The notes: generated from the letters alone by a model not told the origin. DNA of 64,000 nt from Planctomycetota bacterium (GCA_021819825.1 JAKAEZ010000001.1:71600-135599); one strand, 5' to 3'. Positions 47,578-62,845 are shown, counted from the first letter of the stretch. Program-made: numbers and translations.

Positions 47578-48596
47578 GCCAGCGCGAATCGCTCAATGGC
47601 TACGGCTACGCCGTCTTCCCGGTTGGAGGGAACAACATGTCGCGCCGCTTTGCGTATGTGCTCGGGGCCGTTGGCCATGGCGGCACTAACGCCTGCCCAT
47701 TGCAGCATGGGCAGGTCATTGGCATTATCCCCCACCGCCAGTACGTTATCCCGTGTTATCCCATAGGATTTGCAAACAAAGTCCAACGCCATGGCCTTGT
47801 TGGTATCCGGCGCTACAATCTGCAGCAAGCGTGAATCACTGCGAAACAGGCCGATACGATCCTCAAAACGCCGTGGCAAAAGCTGACATAATTCTTCGAT
47901 GATAGAGGCTTTGGCATGGAACATGATGCGCGTTACCGGCACGTGCAGGAAGGTTTCCATGGCGGCAATGACATCCGGATTAAAACTTCGTCCGGTGGGA
48001 ATTGCATCGGCCGGAACAATCCCAAAGTGGTCCGAATAGAGCTTGTCAATAATTTCCACACTGGGAATGACTTCCGGGCAGCGCAATCGGGCGTAGTCAA
48101 TGACCCGGCGCACCAGGGCATGGGGCAAACTGATATGCCGCAGGACGCATTTCTGATTTTCATCCCAGATCAACGCTCCGTTATGGCTGATGATCGGCGT
48201 TTGCAACTTTAAGGCCCGATGATAAAACCGAACACTTCGCGGTGGACGGGCGGTGGCCAGAACCACATGAATACCCCGTTTGGCGGCCAGATGGATCGCA
48301 TGGTGAACGCGCGGGGTAATGGATTCTTTGGGGCTAAGCAGCGTGCCATCCATGTCTAAGGCGATCATTTTAATCGCTTTGGCCGGAGCTGCAGCGCTTG
48401 CCGCAAATGCCGGCAGCGCCGTGGTGGCGGCCGGAGCTTTCGCAAACGTCACAACATGGCTGGGAGATCTCCCACCGCTGGACGTGCGGCGCGGAGCAAC
48501 CATTTTTCGCAGCGATTCAACTAATTCATCTACTGACATAATCAACCCGCTCAAACAAGATACACACACTGACGCCGAAACCAACAGCATTTTCAA
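47574..48596 (-). CDS. Cof-type HAD-IIB phosphatase carrying an unusual Ala/Pro-rich N-terminal extension
   Basis: HAD motifs IALDMDGTLL, …ATARP… and VGDNANDLPML. The start is ambiguous: TTG at 48596, or ATG at 48590 or 48368. Confidence 0.8.
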   Translation of the reverse strand: MKMLLVSASVCVSCLSGLIMSVDELVESLRKMVAPRRTSSGGRSPSHVVTFAKAPAATTALPAFAASAAAPAKAIKMIALDMDGTLLSPKESITPRVHHAIHLAAKRGIHVVLATARPPRSVRFYHRALKLQTPIISHNGALIWDENQKCVLRHISLPHALVRRVIDYARLRCPEVIPSVEIIDKLYSDHFGIVPADAIPTGRSFNPDVIAAMETFLHVPVTRIMFHAKASIIEELCQLLPRRFEDRIGLFRSDSRLLQIVAPDTNKAMALDFVCKSYGITRDNVLAVGDNANDLPMLQWAGVSAAMANGPEHIRKAARHVVPSNREDGVAVAIERFALA

Positions 48597-48791
48597 GCGT
48601 CCATGCGGCTCCCTCCGGGAACACGCACTATAAAACAGGCACTTGTATCATCGGTCAGGAATCGATGTTACATGAGTGAACGTCCATAAAATTCCCGTTT
48701 CCGATAATGAAGCACCAAACGCTCTATTTTTAAGCGCGTTTCAAACAGTTCCCACGTTTGGAATTTCCCACGATCCGGCTTTTTTCGGACG

Positions 48792-49712
48792 TTAGTTAAA
48801 GCGTCGCATGATCGGTGCGATGCGCGCCGCCAAAGCCGATTTTTCCTGGTCCGACAACTGATCCATAATCTTGGCAACGTACTTGGATATCGCCTTGGCC
48901 CGTTGCGCCTGAACTACAGCGGCGTATTGGCGAGCCAGAGTCATGACCTTTATAGCGGCATCCTTTCTCGGGCCGGCTTTGGATACATGCCCTTTGGTCT
49001 TCAAAAACGCCTGGAGTGCCTTTTTTATCCGCCCCAGCAGGTTCGGATCAACTAAACCTTCCTGTTGCGATTGATTCAACATCGCCATGGACGTCTGAAA
49101 CGCCTGTTGATCCAACGCTACAACATTCATCTGACTTTTACTTAGATGGGCGTCGAGCAACCAACGCCGCATTAACCAGGGACCGCGCAACTGCGCAAAC
49201 ATCAGCGCCTGTTCCGCCGGGTTGGAAACCGCCTTAACCTGTTGCACCCACGCCGGCACGCCTGGCCTCGTGGCACGCTGCAACTTAACGGCTAGTGCCC
49301 GCGTTGGGTCGCTGGGATAGCTGATAACATCTACAGCACCCTGAACGTCTGCAAATTTATACGTGACGGTGGCAAATTTGGATGATGGGTTGGCCGGATT
49401 GGCAGGGCTGATTGGACGGTAGGGGTTGACACCAGCAGGTCGGAATACCTGATAAAAGGCCACGGCATCCGATGCTGGCCGGCCAAAAAGCGTTCCTAAA
49501 TGCACGACCAGATAGATACCCGCAAACAGTATCAGCAGCACCGCAACCGCTGCTTTTATTATATCAGGTCGTTTCAGGTCAATAAGTTTCACAAAACCAC
49601 CATTGTTATGCAGCAATATAAACATTCGCCGCATGTCCAATAATAACGACGCATGCGACGAAACATTGCATCTGCGTAACGGCGAGATCCGCCCCATTGA
49701 CTCGTTCCGCAA
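48792..49712 (-). CDS. Hypothetical membrane-anchored protein
   Basis: A single TM (AAVAVLLILFAGIYLVVHLG) followed by a periplasmic domain. The start is uncertain (TTG 49712, or ATG 49697 or 49634). Confidence 0.45.
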   Translation of the reverse strand: MRNESMGRISPLRRCNVSSHASLLLDMRRMFILLHNNGGFVKLIDLKRPDIIKAAVAVLLILFAGIYLVVHLGTLFGRPASDAVAFYQVFRPAGVNPYRPISPANPANPSSKFATVTYKFADVQGAVDVISYPSDPTRALAVKLQRATRPGVPAWVQQVKAVSNPAEQALMFAQLRGPWLMRRWLLDAHLSKSQMNVVALDQQAFQTSMAMLNQSQQEGLVDPNLLGRIKKALQAFLKTKGHVSKAGPRKDAAIKVMTLARQYAAVVQAQRAKAISKYVAKIMDQLSDQEKSALAARIAPIMRRFN

Positions 49713-49806
49713 TGGTTAGAACGCACCAGTTCGCTTGCGGTTGCGGAAATATCGCCCCTTGGACCCACAATATTTCACTATGGCAGTAATTATTCCGGAC
49801 GCTGTA

Positions 49807-51126
49807 TTACCAACCCGACGGCTTTACCGTGGAATATTGCGGATCACGCGGGATATGAAAGGCGCTTACCGGATCTGGATGGGCCGGGTTAAAGGGCTTT
49901 AACCCGGGTCGGATAAATGCGGCCAGCGGTAAATGGTCCTTTTGAATGCCCAGTACCACGCATTTGGCGATTTCATAAGCACCGTAATCATCATTATGCG
50001 TGCGATCCACAAAAGCCACTTTCGATCCATCAGGCCCCAGGTAATTAAAAAATTCCGTGCTCATGGCATTGAGATCGATCAGGGGTACATGCTGCTGTTT
50101 GGCAATCAGCCGCATTTCAGTCGGAAAGCCGTCAAGACTGTTATATATTTTGCCATGCCGGTAAAGCCGCCGGGCCATGGGGGTAACCAGGACCGGAATA
50201 GCGCGATGGGCGCGGGCCTGCGCGATCATCGTGAGCAGGGACGTGCGGTATTCATGTTGAGGCCCGGCATTTTTGCCGCGCTCATGCTGATCGTTATGGC
50301 CAAACTCAATAAACAGGTAATCCCCGGGGCGAATCACGCTCATGACTTTCTTCAAGCGATTTTCCCAGATAAAGCTGTTGGCGGATTCACCATCCTCAGC
50401 GTAATTCGCCACCACGACGCGGCGCGGTACAAAAAAGCGTGTGAACATCTGTCCCCAACTGCACCAGGGTTCAAAACGCTGATCCGTATCCGTGGAATCA
50501 CCGGCAATAAAGATCGTGATCGGATGCGCTTTGGTAATGGTCATGGCGCACAAACAGGGACGCGCATTGCTGAATTCAATGGTGAGTTTGTTGTCCCATT
50601 CCAGGGAGCCAATCTCCCGCGGCTTGAGTCGAACCTTGCCACCGGTGGAAATCTCCGGTGTGCGCGTATTAACCGTAAAGGTGCGTGTTACAAATTTTCC
50701 TGGTGCGGTGACGACTTTTTTGAACATCAACCGCCGCTGTTCCGCTTTTACCGTCATAACCGATTTTCCCTTCAGATCCCCAAGCGTCACAGAAACATTA
50801 TAATTTCCCGACGGCAATTTTATTGAAAAAAAGAAGGGTTTGCGACTGGTAACAAACGCTCCGCGTACGCCATGGGTATTACTGCGATGCACGCCTTTTA
50901 CCTTAAAGCCCAGATCGAAACCGTAGCCCCGGGCGGGAGTATAGGCCATATTCGGAAGCACTTGGATATAGCCGGGCACATGCCGACCGGGGCCAAATTG
51001 AAATTTCAAAGGAAGTTGCACCTTGGCGGCTCGCAAAGCGCCCGCAGGCAATGCCATGATTGCCATGCCGATTAGACCCGTTACGGCCATGTTAAAAGCC
51101 AAAGCTGATCTGCCGAATTTAATCAT
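49807..51126 (-). CDS. Secreted SGNH/GDSL hydrolase (rhamnogalacturonan-acetylesterase-like) with an N-terminal beta-sandwich domain
   Basis: Signal peptide, GDS block (IFIAGDSTD) and a DxxH-type C-terminal block (HNDDYGAYE). Confidence 0.75.
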   Translation of the reverse strand: MIKFGRSALAFNMAVTGLIGMAIMALPAGALRAAKVQLPLKFQFGPGRHVPGYIQVLPNMAYTPARGYGFDLGFKVKGVHRSNTHGVRGAFVTSRKPFFFSIKLPSGNYNVSVTLGDLKGKSVMTVKAEQRRLMFKKVVTAPGKFVTRTFTVNTRTPEISTGGKVRLKPREIGSLEWDNKLTIEFSNARPCLCAMTITKAHPITIFIAGDSTDTDQRFEPWCSWGQMFTRFFVPRRVVVANYAEDGESANSFIWENRLKKVMSVIRPGDYLFIEFGHNDQHERGKNAGPQHEYRTSLLTMIAQARAHRAIPVLVTPMARRLYRHGKIYNSLDGFPTEMRLIAKQQHVPLIDLNAMSTEFFNYLGPDGSKVAFVDRTHNDDYGAYEIAKCVVLGIQKDHLPLAAFIRPGLKPFNPAHPDPVSAFHIPRDPQYSTVKPSGW

Positions 51127-51288: not shown

Positions 51289-54200
51289 TTATTGCCCAGG
51301 TTGATGACTTTGAATCCATGCAGGCCCCGGCAGCGCGTAAGGGCGGAATTTTTCCATCACGCCTTGCTCCTCACTGCATGACAGGCCGCGGTAGAAGCCC
51401 AGATTATTGGCGGCCGGCGAGTCAATTAAACTGCTGGAATCCGCTGCACTCATCTGAAAAAGCACCCGGTTGTCAAATTCTCTCTGGGCAGATCGTTCAA
51501 ATGTGCGTTCCAATGACGCCAAGGTATCCACCCAAGTCAAGATGTGAATACCAACTCCTGGGCCATCACGCAGAATTTCACTAAATTCCTTCGCCGGGTT
51601 GGGGGCCTTGGCCTCATCACCTGAAGACATCGAGAAGCTAAAGTCGTCCTCGTTTTTCCGCAACATTCGGTAACGCTGGAGAGCGAAAATAAAAAGAAAT
51701 GTCTCCGGCGCATTGGGCGACTCTTCGGCCAGGCGACGATGAACCTCCTGGTTAACTGAGTGAATCGTATCTCCGATGCCTCGCCATTCGACGATTTGCA
51801 CGTCCGGGCCTAATGCGGGCGTGAGACGTTCAAATGTACCGGCCAAGCGGGAATCCGCCGCCAACCCATCCATGATATAAAATTTTGCCCCCCCACGCGG
51901 ATACTGTGCCGCTAAGGAAATCAGCGACCAGACCATCAGTGATAGCGCTTGTTCCTCCTGCTGGCCGACCAGCAGAACATTGGATCCGCTTTGCCGCCGC
52001 AGGGTCAGATCGGTAGGCTCTTTAATGGCCACCGGCTCGCCAATCCACGCGCGGGCTGAGGTCGGAATAGTCGTGGGCCTGTCGCCGGCCAGGAGAGCAC
52101 TTAGTTGTTTATTCATCTGGGCATCCGCCGGAGCATTGCCCTCAAATATGACCGGTGGCTCAAAGTGGAATGAAGCATCCTTGGCACGACTGCTGATTTG
52201 ATCCAGATAAATTTCCCGCTTTTCATCCGGCAGCCACGCCACCTGGAACGGGCTGTTAGCCTCTACCAAACCACCGGCATCATTGTAAATTGCGGCACCC
52301 GGGCGGGAAAGCAATCGCGCCGCCGAGTTATTATCTCCCAAGATTATCTGCGAATCCGCCTCGCTTACTTGCAGCGCAATGCGCACGGCCATTTGGCCGA
52401 TGGTGCTGCGGGCCAATCCGGAAGTACCGCCGATAGTTTGCGACCCCAGCAGCAGGTGAATGCCAAAGGCTCGGCCTTGGCGTACCAGACGATCCATTAA
52501 CAATCCGGCTTGTTGGGCCAATTTGTCATCTTCGGAAAAAAATTCCTGAAATTCGTCAATCACCAGCAGAGTTCGCGGCATGGTTTGCGCACCCGCGCTG
52601 CGACGATATGACGGCAAGTCCTGGACTCCCGCCTTGCGGAATAATTCACCACGGCGTGCCAATTCTACATCCAGACGTTCCAAAACACTTAAGCCAAACT
52701 CCCTATCACTTTCTACCGCGATCGCCCGGGCATGGGGCAGGTGATGGGTGGCATAGGTTTTAAATTCCACGCCTTTTTTAAAGTCGATCAGATACAGCTC
52801 AATTTGATCCGGTGAATACCACATCGCCAGATTGGTCACAATCGCGTGCAGCAGCGTGGATTTGCCCGAACCGGTTTTCCCAGCCAGCAGCGCGTGTTGA
52901 GCCATCGCCCGGCCCAGACGCAACATCTGCAGCCGCGTAGCCCCCATACGACCGATTGGAACAGCCAGCGAGTCCGAACTGTCGAGCGACCAAAATTCTG
53001 CATCGCCCGGCGCGATGGTATCAAAGGAGACTTCAACATTCTGATTGGCTTTGGCGGCCTGGCCAATTTTATCCAAGAGCGGTGTAAACACTTCCTCGGT
53101 GGGCGGCTGATCCAGTGCAAGCGGGAACTGGCCGAACACATCATCCTTCCAACTAAATGATTCCGCCTTCTGCACAATATTGACGCAGTGCGCGGCGATA
53201 TCCTCCAGTTGCGTTGCCGAGCCGGCAGGCATTTGCATATCACCCGCCGCCAGCAGATATACGCCGCAACGCGCGCCCGTCGCGGCAATACTGGCCAGCC
53301 GCCGCAGGCAATCTCGCTCAAAACCGGACGGAAAATCAGCAATAACGACAAAGCGGTATGGCTCGGCCAATTCACCGGCCTGCGCGTTGTAATCATCAAT
53401 GGTGGCAAATTCATTGCGCAGATATTTTTGAATGACTGTTTCCATGTGTTCCGTAAGGTCTGAAAGCCGCTGCTCAATTTGTTCCGGGCGCGTCCAGATT
53501 CGCCCCCCCACCAGCGCCTCATCATGATCGGCAAGCCGCATAAACCCCGCAAAATTCTGCCCCAGTCCTACGGGATCAATGATGGTAAATCTGGCCCGGC
53601 CGGGCGGCAATTGCGTGAGAATACTGATCATCACCGATTGCAGCATCTGCAGGGCCGCCGGCCGCCCGGTACGGTCATAGCGCACCAGCATGGAGGCACC
53701 AAAGGGAAATTCCAGCGCTGCCGGCACCGCAAAGGCCGCCGGGAATTCCAACTTTACCGCATCACCTTTAGCGCCGGCGGCGACCACCCGCTTGAGATCT
53801 ACCGAAAACTCGCCCAAGCGGATAACTTTTGGAAAAATATTTGATGGCGTCCAGTTTTCCCATGACGGCGTGCCGTGGCGATCAACGTTTTCTTTTATCG
53901 ACATATTCCCATTGGTGTGCTGGTCGGAAGATGGCTCGGGGATATGCGCCAAACCATTTTTCAACCGGTTTTTCAGCGTCAGCATGGCCTGATCATATTG
54001 CGCCCGGTTATCCGCCAGACGTTCTTCGTATTGTCGCTGTGCAGCAAGAATATCCGCGTCGTGCTGCTTCCGTATGGCCTGGTTCTGGGATTCGCTTTCT
54101 TCTTGCGCAGCGCAAACCGCGGCGGCGCGTTGCGCATCACTTTCAGCTTTGCTGGTGTCATATTGCTGCTGGGACTCCTGCCGCCGTGCGGTGCGCTTGG

Positions 54201-55245
54201 CTTCAATGTTTTGTGCCGCTGCGGCGGCCTTCTGCTTTAATTCCTGCAACTCGCGCAATGCTTTGGCACGGGTATCGGCGAAGTGCGCCTCGTGCCGTTG
54301 GGCCACCATTTCAGCATGTTGTTTTGCGGCCTGCCGCGCTGACGCAATGGCGACATTCAGGGGTTGATTGATTGCCAGTAAGCCGGCCTTCGCCCATGAA
54401 CGGAGCACCAATCCAAGAATAATAGCGCCCGCGAAGGTCCCGCCCACCGCCATGGCAATGACATTAACTTGCACCGGGGTAGAACCCGACAGGCCATAAG
54501 CCACCGCCCCCGCCGCCCCGCATAGCAATATGAGGAATATCCACGGTGCAACGCCGTAAACCAGCCGCGGCAGCAGTAATCGACGAAGAGCCGCCAATTC
54601 TCTCTGGGCGGATTCCAAGTGTGCGGCCATGGCAGCTCTCTGGTCCTGGCCTTCCAGCGCGGCAATGCCTGGGGTTTCCGGTGCTCCCGGCGGCCGACGG
54701 AAACACCGCGCCATCAAAGCCGCCGCGGATTGCGCCACTTCCGCCAGAGCCTGTTCGTGCTCATGGAACACTTTGCTTAGTTCTTCATCTTCGGCACGAA
54801 TCTGATTGCGGGCCGTTTCCACTTCTCCTTCGGCCAGCCATTTGGCTTCTTCTATTTGATTGCGGACTTTCCGCTGCGCATCCGCGTTTTCCCATTTGAT
54901 GGCCGCTTGGGCCTGATTATATTCTTCCGTGCACTGTGCCAGACGGCCCTGATAATCGGCGGCGATTTTTTCCGCAGTGCGTTCACGTTGCGCCGTAAGC
55001 TTTTCAACTTCAAGAGAATATCGGCTCTCTATCTGCGCCAGCGTGTTGTCGCGATCTTTTTTCGCCTGTTCATTGGCGACCCGAAATTGCCGCTCAATCT
55101 GGGACTCATCGGTTGTGCATTGTGCGGCCAAACTTAGCAGGTCGCGCAGCACAGATTTTTGAGCATCGCGCCGGGGACACGCGGCACCATGCTTCTCGGT
55201 CAACGGCGAAACGCGCGGATCAGTCTTTGGGTGTAACTGGGTCAT
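51289..55245 (-). CDS. FtsK/SpoIIIE-family triple P-loop ATPase, T7SS EssC/EccC-like (atypical architecture)
   Basis: Length 1318 aa. The layout is a ~230-aa coiled-coil N-terminus, 2 TMs, a second coiled coil, then three FtsK-like domains. Only the middle domain has a canonical Walker A (LLAGKTGSGKST) and Walker B (LLVIDEFQEF). Confidence 0.85.
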   Translation of the reverse strand: MTQLHPKTDPRVSPLTEKHGAACPRRDAQKSVLRDLLSLAAQCTTDESQIERQFRVANEQAKKDRDNTLAQIESRYSLEVEKLTAQRERTAEKIAADYQGRLAQCTEEYNQAQAAIKWENADAQRKVRNQIEEAKWLAEGEVETARNQIRAEDEELSKVFHEHEQALAEVAQSAAALMARCFRRPPGAPETPGIAALEGQDQRAAMAAHLESAQRELAALRRLLLPRLVYGVAPWIFLILLCGAAGAVAYGLSGSTPVQVNVIAMAVGGTFAGAIILGLVLRSWAKAGLLAINQPLNVAIASARQAAKQHAEMVAQRHEAHFADTRAKALRELQELKQKAAAAAQNIEAKRTARRQESQQQYDTSKAESDAQRAAAVCAAQEESESQNQAIRKQHDADILAAQRQYEERLADNRAQYDQAMLTLKNRLKNGLAHIPEPSSDQHTNGNMSIKENVDRHGTPSWENWTPSNIFPKVIRLGEFSVDLKRVVAAGAKGDAVKLEFPAAFAVPAALEFPFGASMLVRYDRTGRPAALQMLQSVMISILTQLPPGRARFTIIDPVGLGQNFAGFMRLADHDEALVGGRIWTRPEQIEQRLSDLTEHMETVIQKYLRNEFATIDDYNAQAGELAEPYRFVVIADFPSGFERDCLRRLASIAATGARCGVYLLAAGDMQMPAGSATQLEDIAAHCVNIVQKAESFSWKDDVFGQFPLALDQPPTEEVFTPLLDKIGQAAKANQNVEVSFDTIAPGDAEFWSLDSSDSLAVPIGRMGATRLQMLRLGRAMAQHALLAGKTGSGKSTLLHAIVTNLAMWYSPDQIELYLIDFKKGVEFKTYATHHLPHARAIAVESDREFGLSVLERLDVELARRGELFRKAGVQDLPSYRRSAGAQTMPRTLLVIDEFQEFFSEDDKLAQQAGLLMDRLVRQGRAFGIHLLLGSQTIGGTSGLARSTIGQMAVRIALQVSEADSQIILGDNNSAARLLSRPGAAIYNDAGGLVEANSPFQVAWLPDEKREIYLDQISSRAKDASFHFEPPVIFEGNAPADAQMNKQLSALLAGDRPTTIPTSARAWIGEPVAIKEPTDLTLRRQSGSNVLLVGQQEEQALSLMVWSLISLAAQYPRGGAKFYIMDGLAADSRLAGTFERLTPALGPDVQIVEWRGIGDTIHSVNQEVHRRLAEESPNAPETFLFIFALQRYRMLRKNEDDFSFSMSSGDEAKAPNPAKEFSEILRDGPGVGIHILTWVDTLASLERTFERSAQREFDNRVLFQMSAADSSSLIDSPAANNLGFYRGLSCSEEQGVMEKFRPYALPGPAWIQSHQPGQ

Positions 55246-55269
55246 AGTTATGAATGCCTCGCCGACGGT

Positions 55270-55488
55270 TTACTGACAATCGCGCCGCACCTGCGTAAGC
55301 ACCATGGCGATATGTTCCATGGCGTTGGCGGCCGCGTGCAGGTCGGTAGCCAAGGGTTCAAGAAATTTTTTCTCAAAGCGGGCGCTGGCGGCATCATTCC
55401 AGCCAAACTTCACTTCCTCCCAGCTTAGCTGGAGGTGATTCAATGCCTTGGCCAATTGCCCGCGACCTTCATAAACACCCATAAACAA
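55270..55488 (-). CDS. Small helical WXG100-like protein (WxD variant)
   Basis: About 70 aa with central GWNDAASARFEKKF, matching the W-x-G…F…F pattern of the ESAT-6/EsxA hairpin. Immediately upstream of the FtsK-like gene. The start is TTG at 55488 or ATG at 55482. Confidence 0.5.
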   Translation of the reverse strand: MFMGVYEGRGQLAKALNHLQLSWEEVKFGWNDAASARFEKKFLEPLATDLHAAANAMEHIAMVLTQVRRDCQ

Positions 55489-55542
55489 GCCCGCCCTTTT
55501 TCTTGCACCATTTGTGAACCTCGCAGCGACAGGCTGGTACGT

Positions 55543-56574
55543 TTACTTTCGCTGCGTGCCGACATCTCGCCCCTGGGGGTCCTTAATCTCTGCACTGCCC
55601 TGCAAATCCAATATAACAGAAAAACCCACCGGGAGTTTCAGAATTTTTAGCCACTCCGGACTTTTTTGTGCAATATCAGCCACCGTAATCGACCGCCATG
55701 GGCCATGGGCCTTACCCAGTGGCATAAGGCACCAGCCTGTGTCTTCAGGTGATAACGGCTCTGTGCGACGTAGCGTCAGCAAGCACGGTTGGTTATCAGT
55801 TGACTCGGCGAAAGTTATCTTCGCTTCCGGGCGTAATGTCGGGTCCTCACCGGCGAGAGGTTCAATGGCACTAAGCTGCGAATCAGTTAACGTCGGAGCA
55901 GCAAAAGGCCACTGCTTTTGCGGTGCCGCAATGCGGCGTTCTTCGGAACTGGGAAGCAAGAGGTCGCTTTCAAGGCGTTGTGGGGTTGGCTCTTTGGACC
56001 CCGGCGCGCCACGCGACATAACCGCACCCTCCGCCGCCGGGGAGACAAGCGTAAACGGCCCGGCGTTTTCCGAACTTACACCGCCGGGGCTTGCAATGGA
56101 AGCGTATGCCTGCAATTCCGCGACAAGCCGTTCCAGATGCGTTACGCCCGCCGGCACCAGAGATTCCACGCTTGTCGCAAGGCGCTGTACCGAACCTTTA
56201 TATAATTCCACTTCTTTTTGTAAGGCCCGTGTCCAGCGCCGCACATTGGCCAATTTTTGCTCGGCCTCGGTCAATCGGACCATGGCACGTTGTAATTCTT
56301 TTTGCTCCTCAATGGCGGATAACGGTTTTCCGGAATGATCCCGGAAAAGTTTCTTCATACGGACCGCCTCCTTGGCCCGTTCAACGGCGGTTTGGCGTTT
56401 GCGTGTTTGATCTTTCCAGAAGTTTTCCTGCTCAATTTCCAGCCAGAGCATGGTGCGACGCAATTCGGAGTCCGCATCTTCCATGGCGGCGTTGGCTGCC
56501 GCCTGAAACTTCCAGAGCACCGCCTGGAAGCCGACCAGCAAATCCACAGATTCAACCCGAGCGCTCTCGGCCAT
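55543..56574 (-). CDS. Hypothetical protein: helical/coiled-coil N-domain plus Pro/Ser-rich low-complexity C-terminus (candidate secreted substrate)
   Basis: ATG start at 56574, 343 aa. The N-terminal ~160 aa are predicted helical (LWKF…, WLEIEQENFWKD). The C-terminal half is P/S/A-rich. Confidence 0.55.
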   Translation of the reverse strand: MAESARVESVDLLVGFQAVLWKFQAAANAAMEDADSELRRTMLWLEIEQENFWKDQTRKRQTAVERAKEAVRMKKLFRDHSGKPLSAIEEQKELQRAMVRLTEAEQKLANVRRWTRALQKEVELYKGSVQRLATSVESLVPAGVTHLERLVAELQAYASIASPGGVSSENAGPFTLVSPAAEGAVMSRGAPGSKEPTPQRLESDLLLPSSEERRIAAPQKQWPFAAPTLTDSQLSAIEPLAGEDPTLRPEAKITFAESTDNQPCLLTLRRTEPLSPEDTGWCLMPLGKAHGPWRSITVADIAQKSPEWLKILKLPVGFSVILDLQGSAEIKDPQGRDVGTQRK

Positions 56575-56583
56575 GATGCAGTC

Positions 56584-56883
56584 CTATCGCTCGTTAAGGT
56601 ATTTTTCTATATGCTGCGCTTTCTTCATCAAAACCTTGGCGTGCTCGGTCGATGATTCCATGAACTTCCCCAGATACTGCGCCGCCTGATCAAAAGTTTC
56701 GGCAAACTTTTGCTGCTCCTGATCGCGCCAGCTTGATTCCAGAGACCGCAGCCGGGAATTTAATCCCGACATAAGCCCTTCCAGATCATTATTAAACTGC
56801 ATCAGCCCCTGGGCAAACCGCCGCAACTCCGCCGGATCAACACTCGCTTTGGCCATACGATTCATCTCCGTGTATGCCGCCAA
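56584..56883 (-). CDS. WXG100-family (ESAT-6/EsxA-like) small protein, WxD variant
   Basis: Helical hairpin of 90-99 aa with central SSWRDQEQQKFAETF (WXG-like). The likely start is the ATG at 56856 (RBS GGAG with a 9-nt spacer); the track start at 56883 is TTG. Confidence 0.65.
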   Translation of the reverse strand: MAAYTEMNRMAKASVDPAELRRFAQGLMQFNNDLEGLMSGLNSRLRSLESSWRDQEQQKFAETFDQAAQYLGKFMESSTEHAKVLMKKAQHIEKYLNER

Positions 56884-57259: not shown

Positions 57260-57403
57260 TCAGTGTCCTTTGATCAGCGGAAAGGACTCCTGATTGCTCG
57301 TCCAACCCCCTGTCCCCTGTAACCCCCGCCGGAGGGCGGTTGTGCCGGAATTTATCCCGTGCGCGCCGGGATGGTGAAATTTGTTATCGTTCAGTGCAAC
57401 CAT
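57260..57403 (-). pseudogene. Truncated 5' stub of the MVALNE-leader / RHS-tail cassette family (47 aa)
   Basis: Encodes MVALNDNKFHHPGAHGINSGTTAL… and then terminates. It shares the conserved ~78-nt 5' element with the 59747 and 62639 copies. Confidence 0.5.
57326..57403 (-). repeat. Conserved ~78-nt element (leader codons plus 5' flank) of the MVALNE cassette family, copy 1
   Basis: About 90% nucleotide identity to 59673-59747, with the differences including a 3-nt in-frame indel. Confidence 0.7.
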
Positions 57404-57603
57404 AACCCAGTCCATAACACGAAACCGACGATTTCGACACTTTACCGCCGCCAACTCCTCTCTCGGCGAAGCCGTCGCATTCATTAAAACCGTCGTTATT
57501 TCCATTAACTAATCACGTCCGCGCATATGCGATCCCTCCGTTCAGAAAACCGCTTAATGGATCCGCAGCGGAGCGGCCTGTTGGGTAGCCTTTCGCATCC
57601 ACA

Positions 57604-58716
57604 TCATTTCCTTTCAGATGGATGCGTTTTTACCGGTAGCCATTCGACCGCAACGACATGCTTTCGGCCTCGACCTGAAGCAAAGCCAAAGATCATCCCA
57701 CGCGACGTAATAGCGTAGGCTTGCGAGAAGCTATACCGGAGCGGCAGTAGTTTCTGCAGGTCAGTTGCGCTTTCTGGGGTCCCATTCCATACCATCGCGT
57801 GTGCCATGCCGTGAATACGGCTGGTTCCGTACCCCACCTCCTGCCTGCCGTTTGTGCTGTTTGCACAGGACACGGCGCACCCGCTGGGGTTTAAGTCGAC
57901 GAACCTTTTCCCTGACGTGAACCACAGGATGGCGTGGCCGCCTTTGACACCCTTGAGCCGTCCATAGCCCACTATTCTACCGCCACCAGTGCCCACCGCT
58001 TTTGACCAAGCGTATTCTCGAGGATTGAGATCAACCGCGCTCGCTGCGCTTCCCCGCCAAAGCAGTGCCTGATATTTTCCATTTAAGCGTTTTCCGAACC
58101 CAACCTGGTGAACACCGTCCGTTGCCACCGCCTCTGATGAAACGAATCCTTTGGGATTCAGATTAATAAAGCTTTGCGGGCTACCTCTCCAAATCGCGGC
58201 ATAATCCAAATCTCCCGGGGCCTCCACGTAGCCTACTTCTTGGCTAGCTCGCACCGAAATGGCCTGAGAGAATTTAAATCCACGTGGGTTGAGCAGGATC
58301 ACACCTTGGGCCACTCCCGACCATAGAAGGGCCCCACCACGATCGCCGGGCATTTGGCCTGCGCCTACCTGCCATCTCCCGTTTGTGCCTTCCGCGTCCG
58401 ACCAGAGAAACCCTTTCGGGTTTAAATCAACGATGCCCTCCCCTCCAACCCCGCCCAATAGCGCGTGGCCGAAGTGCCGGTGTCCCAACCTCAATCCCAT
58501 ACCAACCCATCGGCCGCCACGGGCCCCCTGAGCAACCGCCTGCCAATAGCCGGGAGTCTTCAAAATGACCGCACGGTATTTCGTGGCCGGCGGAACGCCG
58601 TGGCTCGTTCTCCCCAACGGCCCGATGTGTCCGCGCGCTGGGTTAGCCGCCAGAGGGATTTGGCAATGCACCGACAGGAGGATGGCCATTGCGACTATAC
58701 ACAAGCGCTGGATCAT
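57604..58716 (-). CDS. Secreted HAF-family extracellular repeat protein (~8 x ~40-aa repeats)
   Basis: Signal peptide MIQRLCIVAMAILLSVHC. Repeats carry the HA(F/I)LW…DLNP…S.A…GYG pattern, for example HAILWFTSGKRFVDLNP, HAMVWNGTPESATDL and ALLWRGSAASAVDLNP. Confidence 0.7.
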   Translation of the reverse strand: MIQRLCIVAMAILLSVHCQIPLAANPARGHIGPLGRTSHGVPPATKYRAVILKTPGYWQAVAQGARGGRWVGMGLRLGHRHFGHALLGGVGGEGIVDLNPKGFLWSDAEGTNGRWQVGAGQMPGDRGGALLWSGVAQGVILLNPRGFKFSQAISVRASQEVGYVEAPGDLDYAAIWRGSPQSFINLNPKGFVSSEAVATDGVHQVGFGKRLNGKYQALLWRGSAASAVDLNPREYAWSKAVGTGGGRIVGYGRLKGVKGGHAILWFTSGKRFVDLNPSGCAVSCANSTNGRQEVGYGTSRIHGMAHAMVWNGTPESATDLQKLLPLRYSFSQAYAITSRGMIFGFASGRGRKHVVAVEWLPVKTHPSERK

Positions 58717-58841
58717 ACCAACAAATCCTCACCATGATTTCGTCGCGTCAGGGCACCACAGGACTGCCGCGACATATCAAATATTGCAGTACCGCAGGTT
58801 GGGATATTCTTGGGGAGCGCAATGTTGCGGCGTTGGCGGTC

Positions 58842-59747
58842 TCAAGTAGGCGGAGGCCACATGTTGAACGATGGCGACGGAGTGGGGGAGGGCGGAGGCA
58901 TCAGTGATCTCGCCCAATTGACCAACGAGTCCGCTTCCGCCATGAGATCGCGGTAGCTCGGTTCGCAACCATCTTCCAACAGTTGTTGCATTTCCTGGCT
59001 TGCGTCGCCTACCGCGTAAGCCATCCCAGCCCCCTCAAAGGGAACGCTGGTGCCACCGCTCTCAAGTGCGTCATTAATATCCCACAACAGGGAACCCAGC
59101 GTCAGGGCAAGCTTGGCGGCGTCCGCGGCACATTTTTTATCACATTGCATCTCCAGGGAATGCTCTTGTGATTTTATCTGCTGCCACCTTGCCCAAGCCC
59201 ATAAATTGCCGCCCGAAAGATTGGGCGGCAGCAAGCCCCAAGCGTCCCTGCCCACCGGGTCTATTTCCGCCTGGCCGCCCACATACTCATACAAATTCAC
59301 GCCACCGGCGTAGTCGATGGGATCGCGTTGCAGCACCCGAGTCGCCACTCCTGTGGCCCGTCGGGATTTCGGCTCCTGCCTCAACACCGTGCCAGGAATC
59401 GAGTTGTGCCTGCGGTTGCGAGCGTAATAGAGTTCCGTTTCCGGATCGTTTAGGCCCGTCCCGATATCCGTTGAAACACGAATGTTATCGGGATACCCGC
59501 AGCAAATGATTTCATCGGCACCGACGCTTCGCTCAATGACCAATGAGTAATGATCAATGAACAAATCATTGGAAGTTCGGCGTTTCTGGCCAGTGGTCCG
59601 TGATCGTTGATCAATGAAGTTCACCCCAGATTCCCCGTTCCGCTGTAACCCGCAACCCGTAACCTGTAACCTCCGCCAGAGGGCGGTTGTGCCGGAATTT
59701 ATCCCGTGCGTGCCGTTATGGTGAAATTTTTCGTTCAGTGCAACCAT
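58842..59747 (-). CDS. MVALNE-leader protein with a degenerate RHS repeat-associated core and a variable C-terminal (toxin-like) domain
   Basis: MVALNEKFHHNGTHGINSGTTAL leader. Degenerate core (…DPETELYYARNRRHNSIPG…LQRDPIDYAGGVNLYEYVGG). A unique C-terminal region of ~150 aa with a PPSPTPSP tail. A stop codon lies 2 codons upstream of the ATG. Confidence 0.6.
   Translation of the reverse strand: MVALNEKFHHNGTHGINSGTTALWRRLQVTGCGLQRNGESGVNFIDQRSRTTGQKRRTSNDLFIDHYSLVIERSVGADEIICCGYPDNIRVSTDIGTGLNDPETELYYARNRRHNSIPGTVLRQEPKSRRATGVATRVLQRDPIDYAGGVNLYEYVGGQAEIDPVGRDAWGLLPPNLSGGNLWAWARWQQIKSQEHSLEMQCDKKCAADAAKLALTLGSLLWDINDALESGGTSVPFEGAGMAYAVGDASQEMQQLLEDGCEPSYRDLMAEADSLVNWARSLMPPPSPTPSPSFNMWPPPT
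59673..59747 (-). repeat. Conserved element of the MVALNE cassette family, copy 2
   Basis: See copy 1. The 5' UTR motif ccgcaaaag…agccaat is additionally shared with copy 3. Confidence 0.7.
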
Positions 59748-59870
59748 GAATTACCCGCAAAAGAAAGCAAGCCAATACCGGAATTATATCCCCTTGCACC
59801 CGGACTGCAGATAAATCCATGCAATCCATGCAACCCCACCGGTATAGTACATTTTGATAGGTGGCCGTCC

Positions 59871-60404
59871 CTAGCATTCCCGTTTCGCCCCACGCGGTAT
59901 TTCGGCACGGGGCCGAAGGCCAATCCTTGCGGGTACCCTATCGGTTTTCCGGCGTTTTGGAACCACGGGTTGTGTTGCTGTCGAGGGTATCCCCCTCTGG
60001 CCAATTCCGTTGTTCACAGCCACCTTCACGAACGCCCAAAGGGCAGTGAGGAAAAAGGCGGCAACTACAATAACGAGAGCGGTCCCGATACAGCTTATAA
60101 CGGTCCCCGCAATGGCGAGTCCGCGCGGCTCTCTTTTCAGTCCAAGCGAGCTGAAAATCAGCGCGATTGGCGATGCGATCCCGAAGAAGAATACCAAGCT
60201 GACGACGGAGAGGATGAATCCAACCAATCCCATGGTGTTGCCTCCGGCGGAAGCATTGGGTCTCGGCGGTCGCCCCGCTGCGATTACACGTTCCGTTTGT
60301 GCAACCAGCGCGCTGTGGCAACCGTCACATACTCGATCATTTCCGTCCCACCTCACGGTTCCAGATTCGGCGAGTTCGCGCCCGCATTTTATGCATTTAC
60401 CCAT
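59871..60404 (-). CDS. Zinc-ribbon plus multi-TM small membrane protein (DUF4190-like)
   Basis: N-terminal CxxC…CxxC (MGKCIKCGREL…CDGCH), followed by hydrophobic segments. Good RBS AAAGGAAC. Confidence 0.5.
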   Translation of the reverse strand: MGKCIKCGRELAESGTVRWDGNDRVCDGCHSALVAQTERVIAAGRPPRPNASAGGNTMGLVGFILSVVSLVFFFGIASPIALIFSSLGLKREPRGLAIAGTVISCIGTALVIVVAAFFLTALWAFVKVAVNNGIGQRGIPSTATQPVVPKRRKTDRVPARIGLRPRAEIPRGAKREC

Positions 60405-60549
60405 CCTAGGTTCCTTTCGCTTGAGCCAATCTATCTAATCCATGGTTTCCGTGGAAGGGCGCTTTTTCTCCCGAGCGCACAAGCCAGCAACACCGGCCCC
60501 CAATCCAGCGAACAGCTTGGCCGTCTGTCCGGTGCACGAACCAACTTAA

Positions 60550-61293: not shown

Positions 61294-61358
61294 GGCGCAA
61301 ACTCCAGAACACCGCGCTGATATCGCGCGGGGGGCACGGGGCTCCACCGACGCAAACA

Positions 61359-62639: not shown

Positions 62640-62845
62640 AAGCTGTCCGCAAAAGCCAATTGTTTCAACCCTCAAATCCTGTCCCCTCCGATGCAAATCG
62701 CAAAGCGAGATCATGAAAGCTGCGTCCGCAACGCGACACGCGTTTACCGCCTCACTGCCCGCCGTCTTTATGACCGGCCTTGGAGTCGACGGATGCCACC
62801 GCCTCGCTTCCCCGCCCTTTCGCGTTCACGGCCAAAGCAACCATA

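What the first reader, a model, noticed from the sequence alone, without database searches (positions are those of the whole stretch)
51289..56883. Minimal T7SS-like module: FtsK/SpoIIIE ATPase plus WXG100-like proteins in a high-GC, apparently non-Firmicute, non-mycobacterial genome
Four co-directional genes sit on the minus strand. They are a ~90-aa WXG100-like protein, a 343-aa helical plus Pro/Ser-rich protein, a ~70-aa WXG-like protein and a 1318-aa triple-P-loop FtsK/SpoIIIE ATPase. Together these are the two universal components of type VII secretion. None of the usual EssA, EssB, EsaA or EccB/D/E partners are present. A minimal WXG100/FtsK pair outside the classic T7SSa/b lineages is poorly characterised.
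Basis: partly seen in the sequence, partly recalled or inferred. Interest (0 to 1): 0.75.

Follow-up and report, generated by a model that had tools for sequence, protein, structure and literature searches.

The report
Four-gene type VII-like secretion module
A tightly packed four-gene operon in a planctomycete genome encodes a membrane-anchored EccC/EssC-like ATPase and three helical-hairpin proteins (two of them WXG100-like); this stand-alone "minimal type VII-like" module is widespread in Planctomycetes and Verrucomicrobia, comparative genomics had already noticed it, and it has never been tested experimentally.

Summary
The four minus-strand genes are real and form one operon. It recurs in the same order in 53 of 58 related loci from Planctomycetota, Verrucomicrobiota and Lentisphaerae, and no fifth gene is conserved. 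Gene 1 (90 aa) passes Pfam WXG100; its closest solved relative is H. pylori HP0062, and its turn motif is W-R-D, not W-x-G. Gene 3 (70 aa) is a shorter, divergent WXG100-like protein. Gene 2 (343 aa) is a ~160-residue two-helix hairpin, a disordered Pro/Ser linker and an Imm33-like domain. Gene 4 (1318 aa) has a coiled coil, a TM hairpin, a second coiled coil and three EccC-like P-loop-fold domains. Only the central domain keeps Walker A/B, so "triple P-loop" is wrong. GC is ~54%, not high. The kind is already described in silico: Zhang et al. 2012 (footnote naming planctomycetes and verrucomicrobia), H. pylori HP0062/HP0066, and Bell et al. 2024 (citing Anantharaman 2012). The PVC clade differs by a TM hairpin fused into the ATPase and a middle protein without a toxin domain. 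The best reading is a minimal T7SS-like exporter of a three-protein helical complex across the inner membrane. Export is inferred, not shown. The active ATPase domain forms its own branch and is not nested in EccC/EssC.

The parts
56584..56856 (-). Gene 1: 90-aa WXG100-family protein of the HP0062 type. The hairpin-turn motif is W43-R-D-Q-E, and the C-terminus is strongly conserved (K79 A80 ... E84 x Y86 L87). The ORF as listed starts at TTG 56883; homologues support ATG 56856.
   Evidence: Pfam WXG100 41.9 bits against a cut-off of 27.3. TIGR03930 33.9 bits, below its 44.85 cut-off. Alignment A2 has 18 invariant columns. The profile hits H. pylori HP0062 (3fx7) at E=4e-14, EsxB at 5e-9 and EsxA at 1e-5. 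Present in 56 of 80 loci.
55543..56574 (-). Gene 2: 343-aa long-hairpin protein. The N-terminal two-helix hairpin is aa 5-76 and 88-161 (nt ~56092-56562), with W44, W53 and Y157 conserved. A disordered Pro/Ser linker covers aa 166-199. The C-terminal Imm33-like alpha/beta domain is aa ~205-335 (nt ~55570-55962).
   Evidence: AF2 model m9c6db8bb32ac, mean pLDDT 87.5. Alignments A3/A4. Imm33-like scores 24.9 bits here (cut-off 27) but reaches E=1e-13 in homologues, and 56 of 84 long forms have it. The family has 2838 clusters at 50% identity, with the domain always at residue 1 and lengths of 151-411 aa in the best 150. No known family matches the hairpin.
55270..55482 (-). Gene 3: 70-aa divergent WXG100-like hairpin protein. 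W21 and W28-x-D30 are conserved, and there is a near-invariant Cys69 in a C-terminal D-C-[EQS] motif. The ORF as listed starts at TTG 55488.
   Evidence: Alignment A1. The profile hits S. aureus EsxA at E=0.0016, with W-x-D aligned to W-x-G. hhalign against the gene-1 family gives E=5e-4 at 32% probability. The profile also hits annotated WXG100 proteins of Caballeronia (E=2.6e-9) and Deinococcus (5e-7) in small targeted searches. TIGR03930 gives only E=0.005. Present in 57-59 of 80 loci.
51289..55245 (-). Gene 4: 1318-aa EccC/EssC-like FtsK/SpoIIIE-family ATPase (whole gene).
   Evidence: Pfam FtsK_SpoIIIE 105 bits. By sequence the best PDB hits are EccC 4nh0 (130 bits), EccC5 and YukB, with FtsK at 44 bits. 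The genome scan found at least 427 relatives, and the best 80 are essentially all PVC. At least 8000 clusters score E<1e-20.
54571..55245 (-). ATPase aa 1-225: N-terminal cytoplasmic coiled-coil region.
   Evidence: Sequence composition and conservation in A5/A7. A weak DUF6661 hit only. Bell et al. 2024 describe an N-terminal coiled coil of over 200 aa in the same ATPase type.
54397..54564 (-). ATPase aa ~228-283: two hydrophobic helices (about 228-252 and 260-283) with a ~7-residue loop, forming a TM hairpin.
   Evidence: Kyte-Doolittle 19-residue windows of 2.07 and 2.28. Two such segments are present in 51 of 60 PVC homologues. They are absent from the Caballeronia, Helicobacter, Rhodococcus and Deinococcus plasmid homologues.
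53926..54378 (-). ATPase aa ~290-440: second, juxtamembrane coiled-coil region.
   Evidence: Sequence. A weak ZorA coiled-coil hit over aa 303-428. There is no AF2 model for this part.
53029..53826 (-). ATPase domain A (aa ~474-739): P-loop NTPase fold with degenerate motifs (RFTIIDPVGLGQNF in place of Walker A; VIADFP in place of Walker B). The motifs are conserved but lack the lysine.
   Evidence: AF2 model ma2315519a2e1, fragment residues 35-300. Invariant columns in A6/A7. Only marginal HMM similarity to other FtsK domains.
52159..52968 (-). ATPase domain B (aa ~760-1029): the only catalytically competent domain, with Walker A GKTGSGKST (Lys795) and Walker B LLVIDEF (D897 E898).
   Evidence: Regex search. 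Against an EccC sequence (P0014) the HMM scores 88 bits to D1, 51 to D2 and 6 to D3. NCBIfam EccCa hit over aa 750-987. Invariant motifs.
51307..52152 (-). ATPase domain C (aa ~1032-1313): P-loop NTPase fold with degenerate motifs (VGQQEE; GLQRYR). It occupies the position of the substrate-signal-binding D3 of EccC.
   Evidence: AF2 fragment residues 593-874. The Foldseek alignment with EccC 4nh0 spans 914 columns. Weak HMM similarity to FtsK-type domains. A substrate-binding role is inferred by analogy with EccC D3 (PDB 4n1a, described as 'in complex with a signal sequence peptide').

Best explanation
This is a stand-alone, four-protein, type VII-like protein export module of the HP0062/HP0066 kind, in a Phycisphaerae (Planctomycetota) chromosome.

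Shown:
- One operon encodes (i) an HP0062-type WXG100 protein, (ii) a ~160-residue two-helix hairpin protein with a disordered linker and an Imm33-like domain, (iii) a 70-aa divergent WXG100-like protein and (iv) an ATPase.
- The ATPase has a coiled coil, a TM hairpin, a second coiled coil and three EccC-like domains. Only the central domain keeps Walker A/B.

Inferred mechanism:
- The ATPase hexamerises, as FtsK/EccC-family ATPases do, and is anchored in the cytoplasmic membrane by its own TM hairpins (12 helices per hexamer).
- The long hairpin protein bundles with the two small WXG100-like hairpins into an elongated helical complex. This would be the same logic as LXG toxin plus Lap1/Lap2, or EsaD/EatA plus small WXG100-like partners, in known T7SSs, where the partners form a composite targeting signal.
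- The highly conserved C-terminus of the 90-aa protein docks on the degenerate C-terminal ATPase domain, as the EsxB signal docks on EccC D3.
- ATP hydrolysis by the central domain drives the complex across the inner membrane.
- How, or whether, the cargo then crosses the planctomycetal outer membrane is unknown.

In proteobacterial, Helicobacter and actinobacterial relatives, the middle protein carries a C-terminal nuclease-type toxin followed by an immunity-type gene. The ancestral role was therefore probably polymorphic-toxin delivery. The PVC clade has lost the toxin domain: the middle protein is either short or fused to an Imm33-like domain.
For: - Gene order and tight spacing. 53 of 58 loci share the order and no fifth gene is conserved.
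- WXG100 membership of gene 1, with HP0062, EsxB and EsxA as the closest solved relatives.
- Gene 3 is remotely WXG100-like.
- The gene 2 hairpin model has pLDDT above 90 over aa 10-160. Its N-terminal 'A-x-V-x-S-(I/V)-D-x-L-x-x-F' resembles the WXG100 N-terminus 'A-x-V-D-P-x-E-L-R-R-F'. The WXG90 profile weakly matches the N-termini of the Helicobacter and Rhodococcus middle proteins.
- ATPase: a three-domain EccC-like fold (Foldseek E=7e-31 over 914 columns). By sequence it is closest to EccC/EssC in PDB and NCBIfam. The TM hairpin is conserved in 51 of 60 PVC homologues. There is a single Walker A/B.
- Relatives on plasmids have WXG - coiled-coil/PD-(D/E)xK protein - small protein - 76 aa - ATPase (Caballeronia) and WXG - 'HNH endonuclease' - SMI1/KNR4 - 77 aa - ATPase (Helicobacter).
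- Literature: Zhang 2012 calls them 'mobile versions of T7SS' with only the middle ATPase domain active. Bell 2024 gives the same composition and infers secretion. The abstract of bioRxiv 10.1101/2023.07.29.551094 states that T7SS substrates share an N-terminal helical domain that pairs with helical partners to form a composite signal.
Against: - No experiment exists for any member of this kind in the library searched.
- The ATPase fails all EccC/EssC equivalog cut-offs.
- Its active domain is a separate branch, not nested in EccC/EssC D1. A grouping with FtsK is not excluded (66/100).
- The only membrane element is one TM hairpin with almost no periplasmic loop. No outer-membrane or periplasmic component is linked, although the hosts are diderm.
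- Related ATPases next to CoCoNuT/TerY-P defence loci lack TM segments. Bell et al. take this to suggest a non-canonical mechanism.
- The hairpin protein has no detectable sequence similarity to LXG or any T7SS substrate family. Its fold matches are generic coiled coils.
- A fused immunity-type (Imm33-like) domain is more expected of a cytoplasmic protein than of a secreted one.
- The complex between the three small proteins was not modelled.
- Four loci have the ATPase without partners.
Confidence: 0.55

Rival explanations
1. An intracellular conflict or defence module rather than an exporter. The EssC-like ATPase would remodel, activate or sequester the helical proteins inside the cell (a nuclease-bearing one in relatives), for example as an accessory arm of TerY-P / CoCoNuT-type anti-phage systems. 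The PVC version would be a membrane-tethered derivative.
For: - The same module sits inside TerY-P / CARF / kinase-phosphatase neighbourhoods on the Caballeronia plasmid and next to Ter genes in Rhodococcus.
- Bell et al. [quoted passage not shown]
- The plasmid homologues checked here have no TM hairpin.
- The PVC middle protein carries an immunity-type Imm33-like domain.
Against: - In the PVC loci the module is stand-alone, with no conserved defence neighbour.
- PADLOC gives only generic FtsK/HerA domain hits.
- The PVC ATPase has a conserved TM hairpin.
- TM-less relatives in Deinococcus and R. pseudokoreensis have an adjacent tail-anchored coiled-coil protein, so membrane association may be general.
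- WXG100 proteins are, wherever studied, T7SS-exported (named family knowledge; Pallen 2002 as cited).
Confidence: 0.2
2. A genuine exporter whose real cargo is encoded elsewhere. The three small proteins would be machine or adaptor components (EsxA-like core factors, chaperones) that escort unlinked effectors, such as the polymorphic Rhs-type toxins next door, rather than being the payload.
For: - In T7SSb, EsxA is a universally required co-secreted component rather than an effector (abstract of PMC13355648).
- The PVC middle protein has no toxin domain.
- In this window an array of Rhs C-terminal cassettes lies immediately upstream.
Against: - The Rhs cassettes are not conserved next to the module in the other loci.
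- No other ORF in the 64-kb window carries the hairpin, WXG90 or small-70 domains.
- Among the best 150 representatives of the hairpin family none is longer than 411 aa. The only extra Pfam domain with more than one hit, among the 84 members of at least 255 aa, is Imm33-like.
Confidence: 0.15
3. A DNA translocase or conjugative-transfer motor (FtsK/SpoIIIE proper, TraB/TcpA-like), with the small helical proteins as accessory factors.
For: - The Pfam family is FtsK_SpoIIIE.
- In the NJ tree the active domain pairs loosely with FtsK (66/100).
- Relatives occur on plasmids.
Against: - There are no FtsK gamma (PF09397) or alpha (PF17854) domains.
- The architecture is three tandem domains with two degenerate, which is EccC-like and unlike FtsK/TraB.
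- FtsK and TcpA match only one domain, at E~1e-10, against 7e-31 for EccC.
- The obligate linkage to WXG100 proteins.
- No relaxase or other transfer genes are conserved nearby.
Confidence: 0.05

Closest known systems
HP0062/HP0066-type 'solo WXG + distinct YueA-like ATPase' modules (Zhang et al. 2012, Biol Direct, Table 1 footnote 6; H. pylori HP0062 structures 3FX7/2GTS; PMC4978471)
   Same: - The WXG100 protein has W-R-D in place of W-x-G and is the best solved-structure match to gene 1 (E=4e-14).
[quoted passage not shown]
- The footnote explicitly lists planctomycetes and verrucomicrobia.
- The pair is called a minimal T7SS set.
   Different: - The published notes mention only the WXG protein and the ATPase. 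The long-hairpin protein and the second small WXG-like protein as fixed members, and the TM hairpin in the PVC ATPases, are not described there.
[quoted passage not shown] 2024, eLife, PMC11090510; citing Anantharaman et al. 2012)
   Same: - The operon composition matches: an EssC-like ATPase with three domains (only the central one active) and a long N-terminal coiled coil; two WXG100-type proteins, one atypical; and a coiled-coil protein between them.
- The Caballeronia plasmid locus examined here is of this type, and its WXG protein matches the PVC profile at E=1e-25.
   Different: - There the ATPase lacks TM helices, and the coiled-coil protein is fused to a D-ExK nuclease followed by a DNA-mimic-like protein. 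The module is embedded between VWA genes of a defence island.
- Here the ATPase has a conserved TM hairpin, the middle protein has no nuclease (an Imm33-like domain or nothing), and the module is stand-alone in the chromosome.
T7SSb LXG toxin pre-secretion complexes (LXG + Lap1/Lap2; EsaD + EsxB/C/D) and mycobacterial EatA + TapA1/TapA2
   Same: - The logic matches: a longer N-terminal helical-hairpin protein encoded beside two small WXG100-like hairpins and an EssC/EccC-type ATPase.
- In the Helicobacter and Caballeronia relatives the long protein ends in a nuclease-type domain followed by an immunity-type gene. This is the polymorphic-toxin layout (abstracts listed).
   Different: - There is no sequence match to LXG, DUF3130, DUF3958 or other Lap families.
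- EssA, EssB, EsaA and EsaB are absent.
- The PVC long protein has no toxin.
- The host is diderm.
- Complex formation was not tested here.
EccC (T7SSa) / EssC (T7SSb) coupling ATPases
   Same: - Three tandem FtsK-like domains after a TM hairpin.
- The best fold and sequence matches in the PDB.
- The active domain resembles EccC D1 most (88 bits).
   Different: - It scores far below the family cut-offs.
- Only the central domain is active, whereas Bell et al. state that EssC D1 and D2 keep the motifs.
- A 225-aa coiled coil precedes the TM hairpin and a 150-aa coiled coil follows it. There are no FHA domains.
- The active domain is a separate phylogenetic branch.

Membership tests
Pfam WXG100 (PF06013) | Score at or above the curated gathering threshold (27.3 bits) | tested here: met
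   Gene 1 scores 41.9 bits, E=1.2e-10, over aa 14-93 of the 99-aa ORF. Gene 3 gives no Pfam hit.
Pfam WXG100 (PF06013) | W-x-G motif in the turn of a ~100-aa helix-turn-helix hairpin | tested here: not met
   Gene 1 has W43-R-D, and the family consensus is W-[RQE]-D-Q-E. Gene 3 has W28-x-D30. HP0062 likewise has WRD and is still a solved WXG100-like hairpin.
NCBIfam TIGR03930 WXG100_ESAT6 | Score at or above the 44.85-bit cut-off | tested here: not met
   Gene 1 scores 33.9 bits and gene 3 scores 16.9 bits.
EccC (TIGR03924 EccCa, TIGR03925 EccCb) / EssC (TIGR03928) | Score at or above the equivalog cut-offs (509 / 347 / 778 bits) | tested here: not met
   The scores are 129.3, 88.4 and 100.7 bits, and only the central domain matches.
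EccC / EssC | Three tandem FtsK/SpoIIIE-type ATPase domains C-terminal to transmembrane helices | tested here: met
   The AF2 model has three alpha/beta domains. Foldseek hits EccC 4nh0 at E=7e-31 over 914 columns. There are two TM segments at aa ~228-283.
EccC / EssC | Intact Walker A/B motifs in more than one ATPase domain (in D1 and D2 of EssC, as stated in PMC11090510) | tested here: not met
   There is a single Walker A (Lys795) and Walker B (D897 E898), in the central domain only. Domains A and C lack the lysine.
EccC / EssC | Active domain nests phylogenetically within the EccC/EssC D1 clade | tested here: not met
   In the NJ tree with 100 bootstraps the D1 group is monophyletic without this family in 97 replicates. 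The family forms its own clade in 100, and the family+FtsK split appears in 66. Sampling was small and the method simple.
EssC (T7SSb) | N-terminal FHA domains | tested here: not met
   There is no FHA hit (PF00498/PF16697). The N-terminus is coiled coil.
T7SSa / T7SSb complete systems | Linked EccB/EccD/EccE/MycP, or EssA/EssB/EsaA/EsaB | tested here: not met
   No such Pfam or NCBIfam hits were found in the flanking genes scanned (46438-51126 and 57604-63986). No fifth conserved gene family appears across 80 loci.
Stand-alone WXG100 + three-domain EssC-like ATPase operon (Zhang 2012 footnote; Bell 2024) | ATPase with three FtsK/HerA domains, only the middle one active | tested here: met
   compared with the text quoted.
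Stand-alone WXG100 + three-domain EssC-like ATPase operon (Zhang 2012 footnote; Bell 2024) | Two WXG100-type small proteins, one canonical and one atypical, plus a coiled-coil protein in the same operon | tested here: met
   Genes 1, 3 and 2. The WXG90 profile hits the Caballeronia, Helicobacter, Rhodococcus and Deinococcus orthologues at E=1e-25 to 2e-11. The active domains of PVC plus the three plasmid homologues included in the tree (Caballeronia, Helicobacter, Rhodococcus) are monophyletic in 100/100 replicates.
Stand-alone WXG100 + three-domain EssC-like ATPase operon (Zhang 2012 footnote; Bell 2024) | Coiled-coil protein fused to a nuclease/toxin domain, with a following inhibitor or immunity gene (as in the CoCoNuT-linked version) | tested here: not met
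   The PVC middle proteins are ~190-290 aa without a further domain, or ~320-411 aa with an Imm33-like domain. No nuclease domain appears among the 84 members of at least 255 aa scanned, and no gene lies between genes 2 and 3.
FtsK DNA translocase | Single motor domain with alpha (PF17854) and gamma (PF09397) domains | tested here: not met
   Neither domain is found. FtsK structures match one domain only.
LXG polymorphic toxins (PF04740) | LXG N-terminal domain match and a C-terminal toxin domain | tested here: not met
   No LXG hit at E<=0.1 for gene 2, or at E<=0.01 in 52 homologues. There is no toxin domain. The resemblance is architectural only.
Known anti-phage defence systems (PADLOC-DB 2.0) | System-specific protein models matched by the operon's proteins | tested here: not met
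   There are only generic FtsK/HerA-domain hits (SspH C-terminus, mad8, HerA) for the ATPase. The three small proteins give none.
T7SS function (protein export) | ATPase-dependent appearance of WXG100 proteins outside the cytoplasm | not testable with these tools
   This needs fractionation or secretome experiments.

The most novel reading that the evidence does not exclude
The PVC clade is a self-sufficient four-protein type VII-like exporter working in a diderm envelope. The ATPase's own fused TM hairpins (12 helices per hexamer) would be the only membrane component. The cargo would be a toxin-less helical trimer: the long hairpin protein (with or without the Imm33-like domain) plus two WXG100-like proteins. 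On this reading an ancestral polymorphic-toxin delivery cassette was domesticated across Planctomycetes and Verrucomicrobia for a non-toxin role, such as an envelope, surface or signalling function. The Imm33-like fusion would be a relic of an immunity gene that fused after the toxin was lost.
Probability: 0.3. Interest if true: 0.7.

Novelty: new member of a known kind. Interest (0 to 1): 0.45.

Why it matters
Type VII secretion is treated in current reviews as a feature of Actinomycetota and Bacillota. Even the 2024 expansion to subtypes T7SSc-j stays within Gram-positives (PMC11217815). A monophyletic, very large family of four-gene T7-like modules in diderm PVC bacteria would be the smallest T7-type machine known, with the ATPase as the only membrane protein: the hairpin family has at least 2838 clusters at 50% identity, and at least 8000 ATPase clusters score below E=1e-20. 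It would be a clean system for two open questions. What is the minimal translocon of a T7SS? And how do composite helical signals engage degenerate ATPase domains? It also bears on how T7-type modules moved between secretion and defence contexts (TerY-P/CoCoNuT). Against this, the kind has been recognised in silico since 2011-2012, so this locus adds detail and scope rather than a new category.

Tried and rejected
- PADLOC scan of all operon proteins gave only generic FtsK/HerA hits, so this is not a catalogued defence system.
- A profile of the hairpin family against PDB sequences and Pfam gave no significant family. The MHC class I hits at E~0.02 are chance matches to 'W-x-E-x-x-x-x-YW'.
- The idea that the hairpin protein is a polymorphic-toxin carrier in PVC was rejected. 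Among the best 150 representatives none exceeds 411 aa. In the 84 members of at least 255 aa scanned, the only extra domain found in more than one member is Imm33-like.
- The idea that the neighbouring Rhs C-terminal cassettes are the cargo was rejected. They are not conserved next to the module and lack the helical N-domains.
I rebuilt them from database hits (A4, A7).
- HMMs of ATPase domains A and C against EccC/EssC sequences were too weak to assign domain-by-domain orthology.
- The promoter/terminator consensus scan found no more than shuffles give.
- Anantharaman et al. 2012 could not be read; it is not held. It is cited only through Bell et al. 2024.
- One broad literature query was uninformative.

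Full report
OBSERVATION

Alignment with homologues shows modal lengths of 90 and 70 aa for the two small proteins. Their likely starts are therefore ATG 56856 and ATG 55482, not the upstream TTGs. Spacers between the genes are 9, 60 and 24 nt.

The window is 51-58% GC, so it is not high-GC.

The ATPase is 97% identical to one on a 'Phycisphaerales bacterium' MAG contig. The best 80 related loci are almost all Planctomycetota (Phycisphaerae/Tepidisphaerales, Pirellulales, Isosphaeraceae), Verrucomicrobiota and Lentisphaerae.

IS IT MORE THAN CHANCE?

Yes. tblastn and profile searches show the same four genes in the same order and strand in 53 of 58 loci that have at least 1.4 kb upstream of the ATPase. 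One locus is cut by a contig end, and four have the ATPase alone.

All-vs-all clustering of every ORF of at least 60 aa in the 80 loci gives four conserved families and nothing else. The next real family is present in only 6 loci.

The flanking genes of this window are not conserved with the module. They are a GDSL esterase, a HAD hydrolase, a DUF218 protein and Rhs-type cassettes.

THE PROTEINS

Gene 1 (90 aa)
- It passes the Pfam WXG100 threshold (41.9 vs 27.3 bits) but not the stricter TIGR03930 cut-off.
- Its family has W-[RQE]-D-Q-E at the turn instead of W-x-G, and a very conserved C-terminus.
- The family profile finds H. pylori HP0062 as the best solved structure (E=4e-14), then B. anthracis EsxB and S. 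aureus EsxA. HP0062 is a solved helical hairpin dimer with 'WRD' that clusters with an FtsK/SpoIIIE gene (PMC3397514).

Gene 3 (70 aa)
- It has no Pfam hit.
- Its family profile finds S. aureus EsxA first in the PDB (E=0.0016), with W-x-D aligned on W-x-G.
- It aligns to the gene-1 family by hhalign (E=5e-4, probability only 32%).
- It hits annotated WXG100 proteins of Caballeronia and Deinococcus in targeted searches (E=2.6e-9 and 5e-7).
- I take it as a shortened WXG100-like hairpin.

Gene 2 (343 aa)
- AF2 (63-sequence alignment, pLDDT 87.5) gives two ~72-residue helices forming one long hairpin (aa 5-76 and 88-161), a disordered Pro/Ser linker (166-199) and a compact alpha/beta domain.
- The C-terminal domain is Imm33-like. 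It is just under threshold here but clear in homologues.
- The hairpin domain matches no Pfam or PDB family. Fold searches return only generic hairpins.
- An exhaustive profile search finds 2838 clusters at 50% identity. In the best 150 the domain always starts at the N-terminus and lengths are 151-411 aa.
- There are two forms: short (~190-290 aa, hairpin plus tail) and long (~320-411 aa). Of the 84 members of at least 255 aa, 56 have the Imm33-like domain. No other domain recurs in them: there is a single borderline Plasmid_RAQPRD hit in one member and no toxin domain.

Gene 4 (1318 aa)
- Pfam FtsK_SpoIIIE scores 105 bits.
- There is one Walker A (GKTGSGKST, Lys795) and one Walker B (D897-E898).
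- Two hydrophobic helices at ~228-283 have a ~7-residue loop. They are flanked by a 225-aa N-terminal and a ~150-aa juxtamembrane coiled coil.
- AF2 of aa 440-1318 (pLDDT 81) shows three alpha/beta domains.
- Foldseek puts T. curvata EccC first (E=7e-31, 914 aligned columns), then EccC D2-D3 and EssC. FtsK and TcpA match one domain only, at ~1e-10.
- By sequence the nearest solved relatives are EccC, EccC5 and YukB (130-82 bits), against 44 bits for FtsK.
- All EccC/EssC equivalog scores are far below their cut-offs.
- Domains A and C keep conserved but lysine-less motifs: IIDPVGLGQNF/VIADFP and VGQQEE/GLQRYR.
- A bootstrapped NJ tree of active domains gives three results. First, PVC plus three plasmid homologues are monophyletic (100/100), with PVC itself monophyletic (100/100). 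Second, the EccC/EssC-D1 group is monophyletic without this family (97/100). Third, the family's position relative to FtsK proper is unresolved (66/100).
- The method is crude and sampling was small. The T7SS-like assignment therefore rests on architecture, fold and WXG100 linkage.

RELATIVES OUTSIDE PVC

tblastn against plasmids found four records covering at least 80% of the three-domain query (H1-H4: Rhodococcus sp. AH-ZY2, Caballeronia, R. pseudokoreensis, Deinococcus), plus a Helicobacter sp. plasmid at 66% coverage.
- Caballeronia: VWA - WXG100 - 436-aa coiled-coil protein ending in a D…EVK (PD-(D/E)xK-like) region - 113 aa - 76 aa - ATPase (927 aa) - CARF - VWA - PP2C - kinase.
- Helicobacter sp. 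plasmid: 89-aa WXG-like - 340-aa 'HNH endonuclease' with a helical N-terminus - SMI1/KNR4 (SUKH immunity family) - 77 aa - ATPase (823 aa).
- Rhodococcus and Deinococcus have the same parts in other orders.

The PVC gene-1 profile hits the small WXG proteins in four of these five loci (E=1e-25 to 2e-11); in R. pseudokoreensis the match is only marginal (E=0.002).

None of these ATPases has a TM hairpin. In Deinococcus and R. pseudokoreensis, however, an adjacent coiled-coil protein ends in a hydrophobic tail anchor. In 51 of 60 PVC homologues the coiled coil and TM hairpin are part of the ATPase itself.

PRIOR KNOWLEDGE
- Zhang et al. [quoted passage not shown] - Bell et al. 2024 (PMC11090510) describe the operon in detail next to CoCoNuT systems. 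It has a central-domain-only active EssC homologue with an N-terminal coiled coil of over 200 aa and no TM. It also has two WXG100 proteins (one atypical), a coiled-coil-nuclease fusion and a DNA-mimic-like protein. Citing Anantharaman et al. [quoted passage not shown]
- I found no experimental study of any member.
- The 2024 survey of new T7SS subtypes is restricted to Gram-positives.

MECHANISM (inference)

The best-supported reading is a minimal T7-like exporter.
- A hexameric ATPase is anchored by its own TM hairpins, with one hydrolysing ring (domain B) and two degenerate rings (A and C) used for regulation and substrate docking.
- The substrate is a composite helical bundle of the long hairpin protein with the two small WXG100-like hairpins. 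This parallels LXG/Lap, EsaD/EsxBCD and EatA/TapA complexes (abstracts).
- The invariant C-terminal segment of gene 1 is the obvious candidate for the signal that binds domain C. The comparison is with EccC D2-D3 solved 'in complex with a signal sequence peptide' (4n1a).
- Relatives carry nuclease-type toxins with immunity-type genes at the middle position, so the ancestral role was probably toxin delivery. The PVC clade is toxin-less.
- Imm33 is listed by Zhang et al. as an immunity family for HNH-fold toxins. The Imm33-like fusion could therefore be a fused immunity gene left after toxin loss. This is speculation and untested.
- What happens beyond the inner membrane in these diderm hosts is unknown.

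RIVALS
- An intracellular defence or conflict role (0.2). It is supported by the TerY-P/CoCoNuT contexts and the TM-less relatives. It is weakened by the stand-alone PVC context, the conserved TM hairpin and the lack of PADLOC matches.
- An exporter whose true cargo is unlinked (0.15).
- A DNA translocase (0.05). It is disfavoured by the architecture, the missing alpha/gamma domains and the obligate WXG100 linkage.

VERDICT

Three details were wrong: triple P-loop, high GC, and the missed Imm33-like domain. The kind was already recognised in silico, for these very phyla.

New here:
- The fixed four-gene composition across PVC.
- The size of the hairpin family and its two forms.
- The TM hairpin fused into the PVC ATPases, in contrast to the TM-less defence-island relatives.
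- The absence of a toxin.
- The separate phylogenetic branch of the ATPase.

Interest is moderate (0.45). The module is experimentally untouched and potentially the simplest T7-type machine, but it is not a new category.

Noticed in passing
window 57309-62655 (minus-strand ORFs 58842-59747 and 61359-62156): Immediately upstream of the operon lies what looks like an array of orphan Rhs C-terminal toxin cassettes. There are three repeat families: 57309-57382/59656-59729 (89%), 59709-59763/62601-62655 (80%) and 59267-59334/61976-62043 (91%). The last encodes the Rhs core-end motif 'DPIDYAGGVNLYEYVGG' (weak TIGR03696 hit, E=0.0017). Candidate immunity genes lie between the cassettes (a 370-aa ORF with no Pfam hit, a YcxB-like ORF and a DUF4190 ORF). 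No full-length Rhs gene is seen in the window. The array is not conserved next to the module in other loci.
   Followed up: partly
window 55570-55962 (gene 2, aa ~205-335) and homologues P0270 etc.: A major subclass of the hairpin-protein family carries a C-terminal Imm33-like domain with a D-x-G-W motif: 56 of the 84 members of at least 255 aa. Imm33-type domains are otherwise annotated as immunity proteins of HNH-fold polymorphic toxins. Why an immunity-type domain is fused to a presumed secretion substrate is unexplained.
   Followed up: partly
window 55270-55482 (gene 3) and alignment A1: The 70-aa family ends in a near-invariant D-C-[EQS] with Cys69 as the penultimate residue, and has two conserved Trp (W21, W28). 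The Caballeronia 76-aa counterpart also ends '...YGCAQ'. A conserved C-terminal cysteine is unusual for WXG100-type proteins. Its role (disulfide, lipidation, metal) is unknown.
   Followed up: no
L084:3674-4102 (Deinococcus plasmid) and L085:6996-7607 (Rhodococcus pseudokoreensis plasmid): Next to the TM-less ATPase homologues are separate coiled-coil proteins that end in a hydrophobic tail anchor. In PVC the coiled coil plus TM hairpin is fused to the ATPase N-terminus. This suggests a split versus fused membrane anchor in different lineages.
   Followed up: partly
L012, L063, L068, L071: Four related loci have the three-domain ATPase with at least 3.6 kb of upstream DNA but no detectable WXG, hairpin or small-70 genes within the locus, even with profile HMMs. 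These are orphan ATPases, or their partners are encoded elsewhere.
   Followed up: partly
L083:3495-7463 (Rhodococcus sp. AH-ZY2 plasmid): This full-length homologue (1322 aa, 34% identity over the ATPase part) has an N-terminal region resembling TerD-type proteins and sits beside TerD and DUF475 genes. It is another link between this ATPase type and Ter stress/defence loci. The TerD resemblance was judged by eye from the sequence and neighbours, and was not scanned.
   Followed up: no
window 49807-51126 (minus): The gene directly downstream of the ATPase encodes a 439-aa secreted-looking GDSL esterase with an N-terminal galactose-binding-like domain (Pfam Lipase_GDSL_2, AGA-YXIM_GBD). It is shared only with the 97%-identical relative L025, so it is a neighbour and not part of the module.
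   Followed up: yes
L001 vs window: In the relative whose ATPase is 86% identical (L001), both flanks of the four-gene cassette differ from this window. The 97% relative (L025) shares the downstream genes. This fits the cassette moving or sitting in a variable region, but no integrase, tRNA or terminal repeats were looked for.
   Followed up: no
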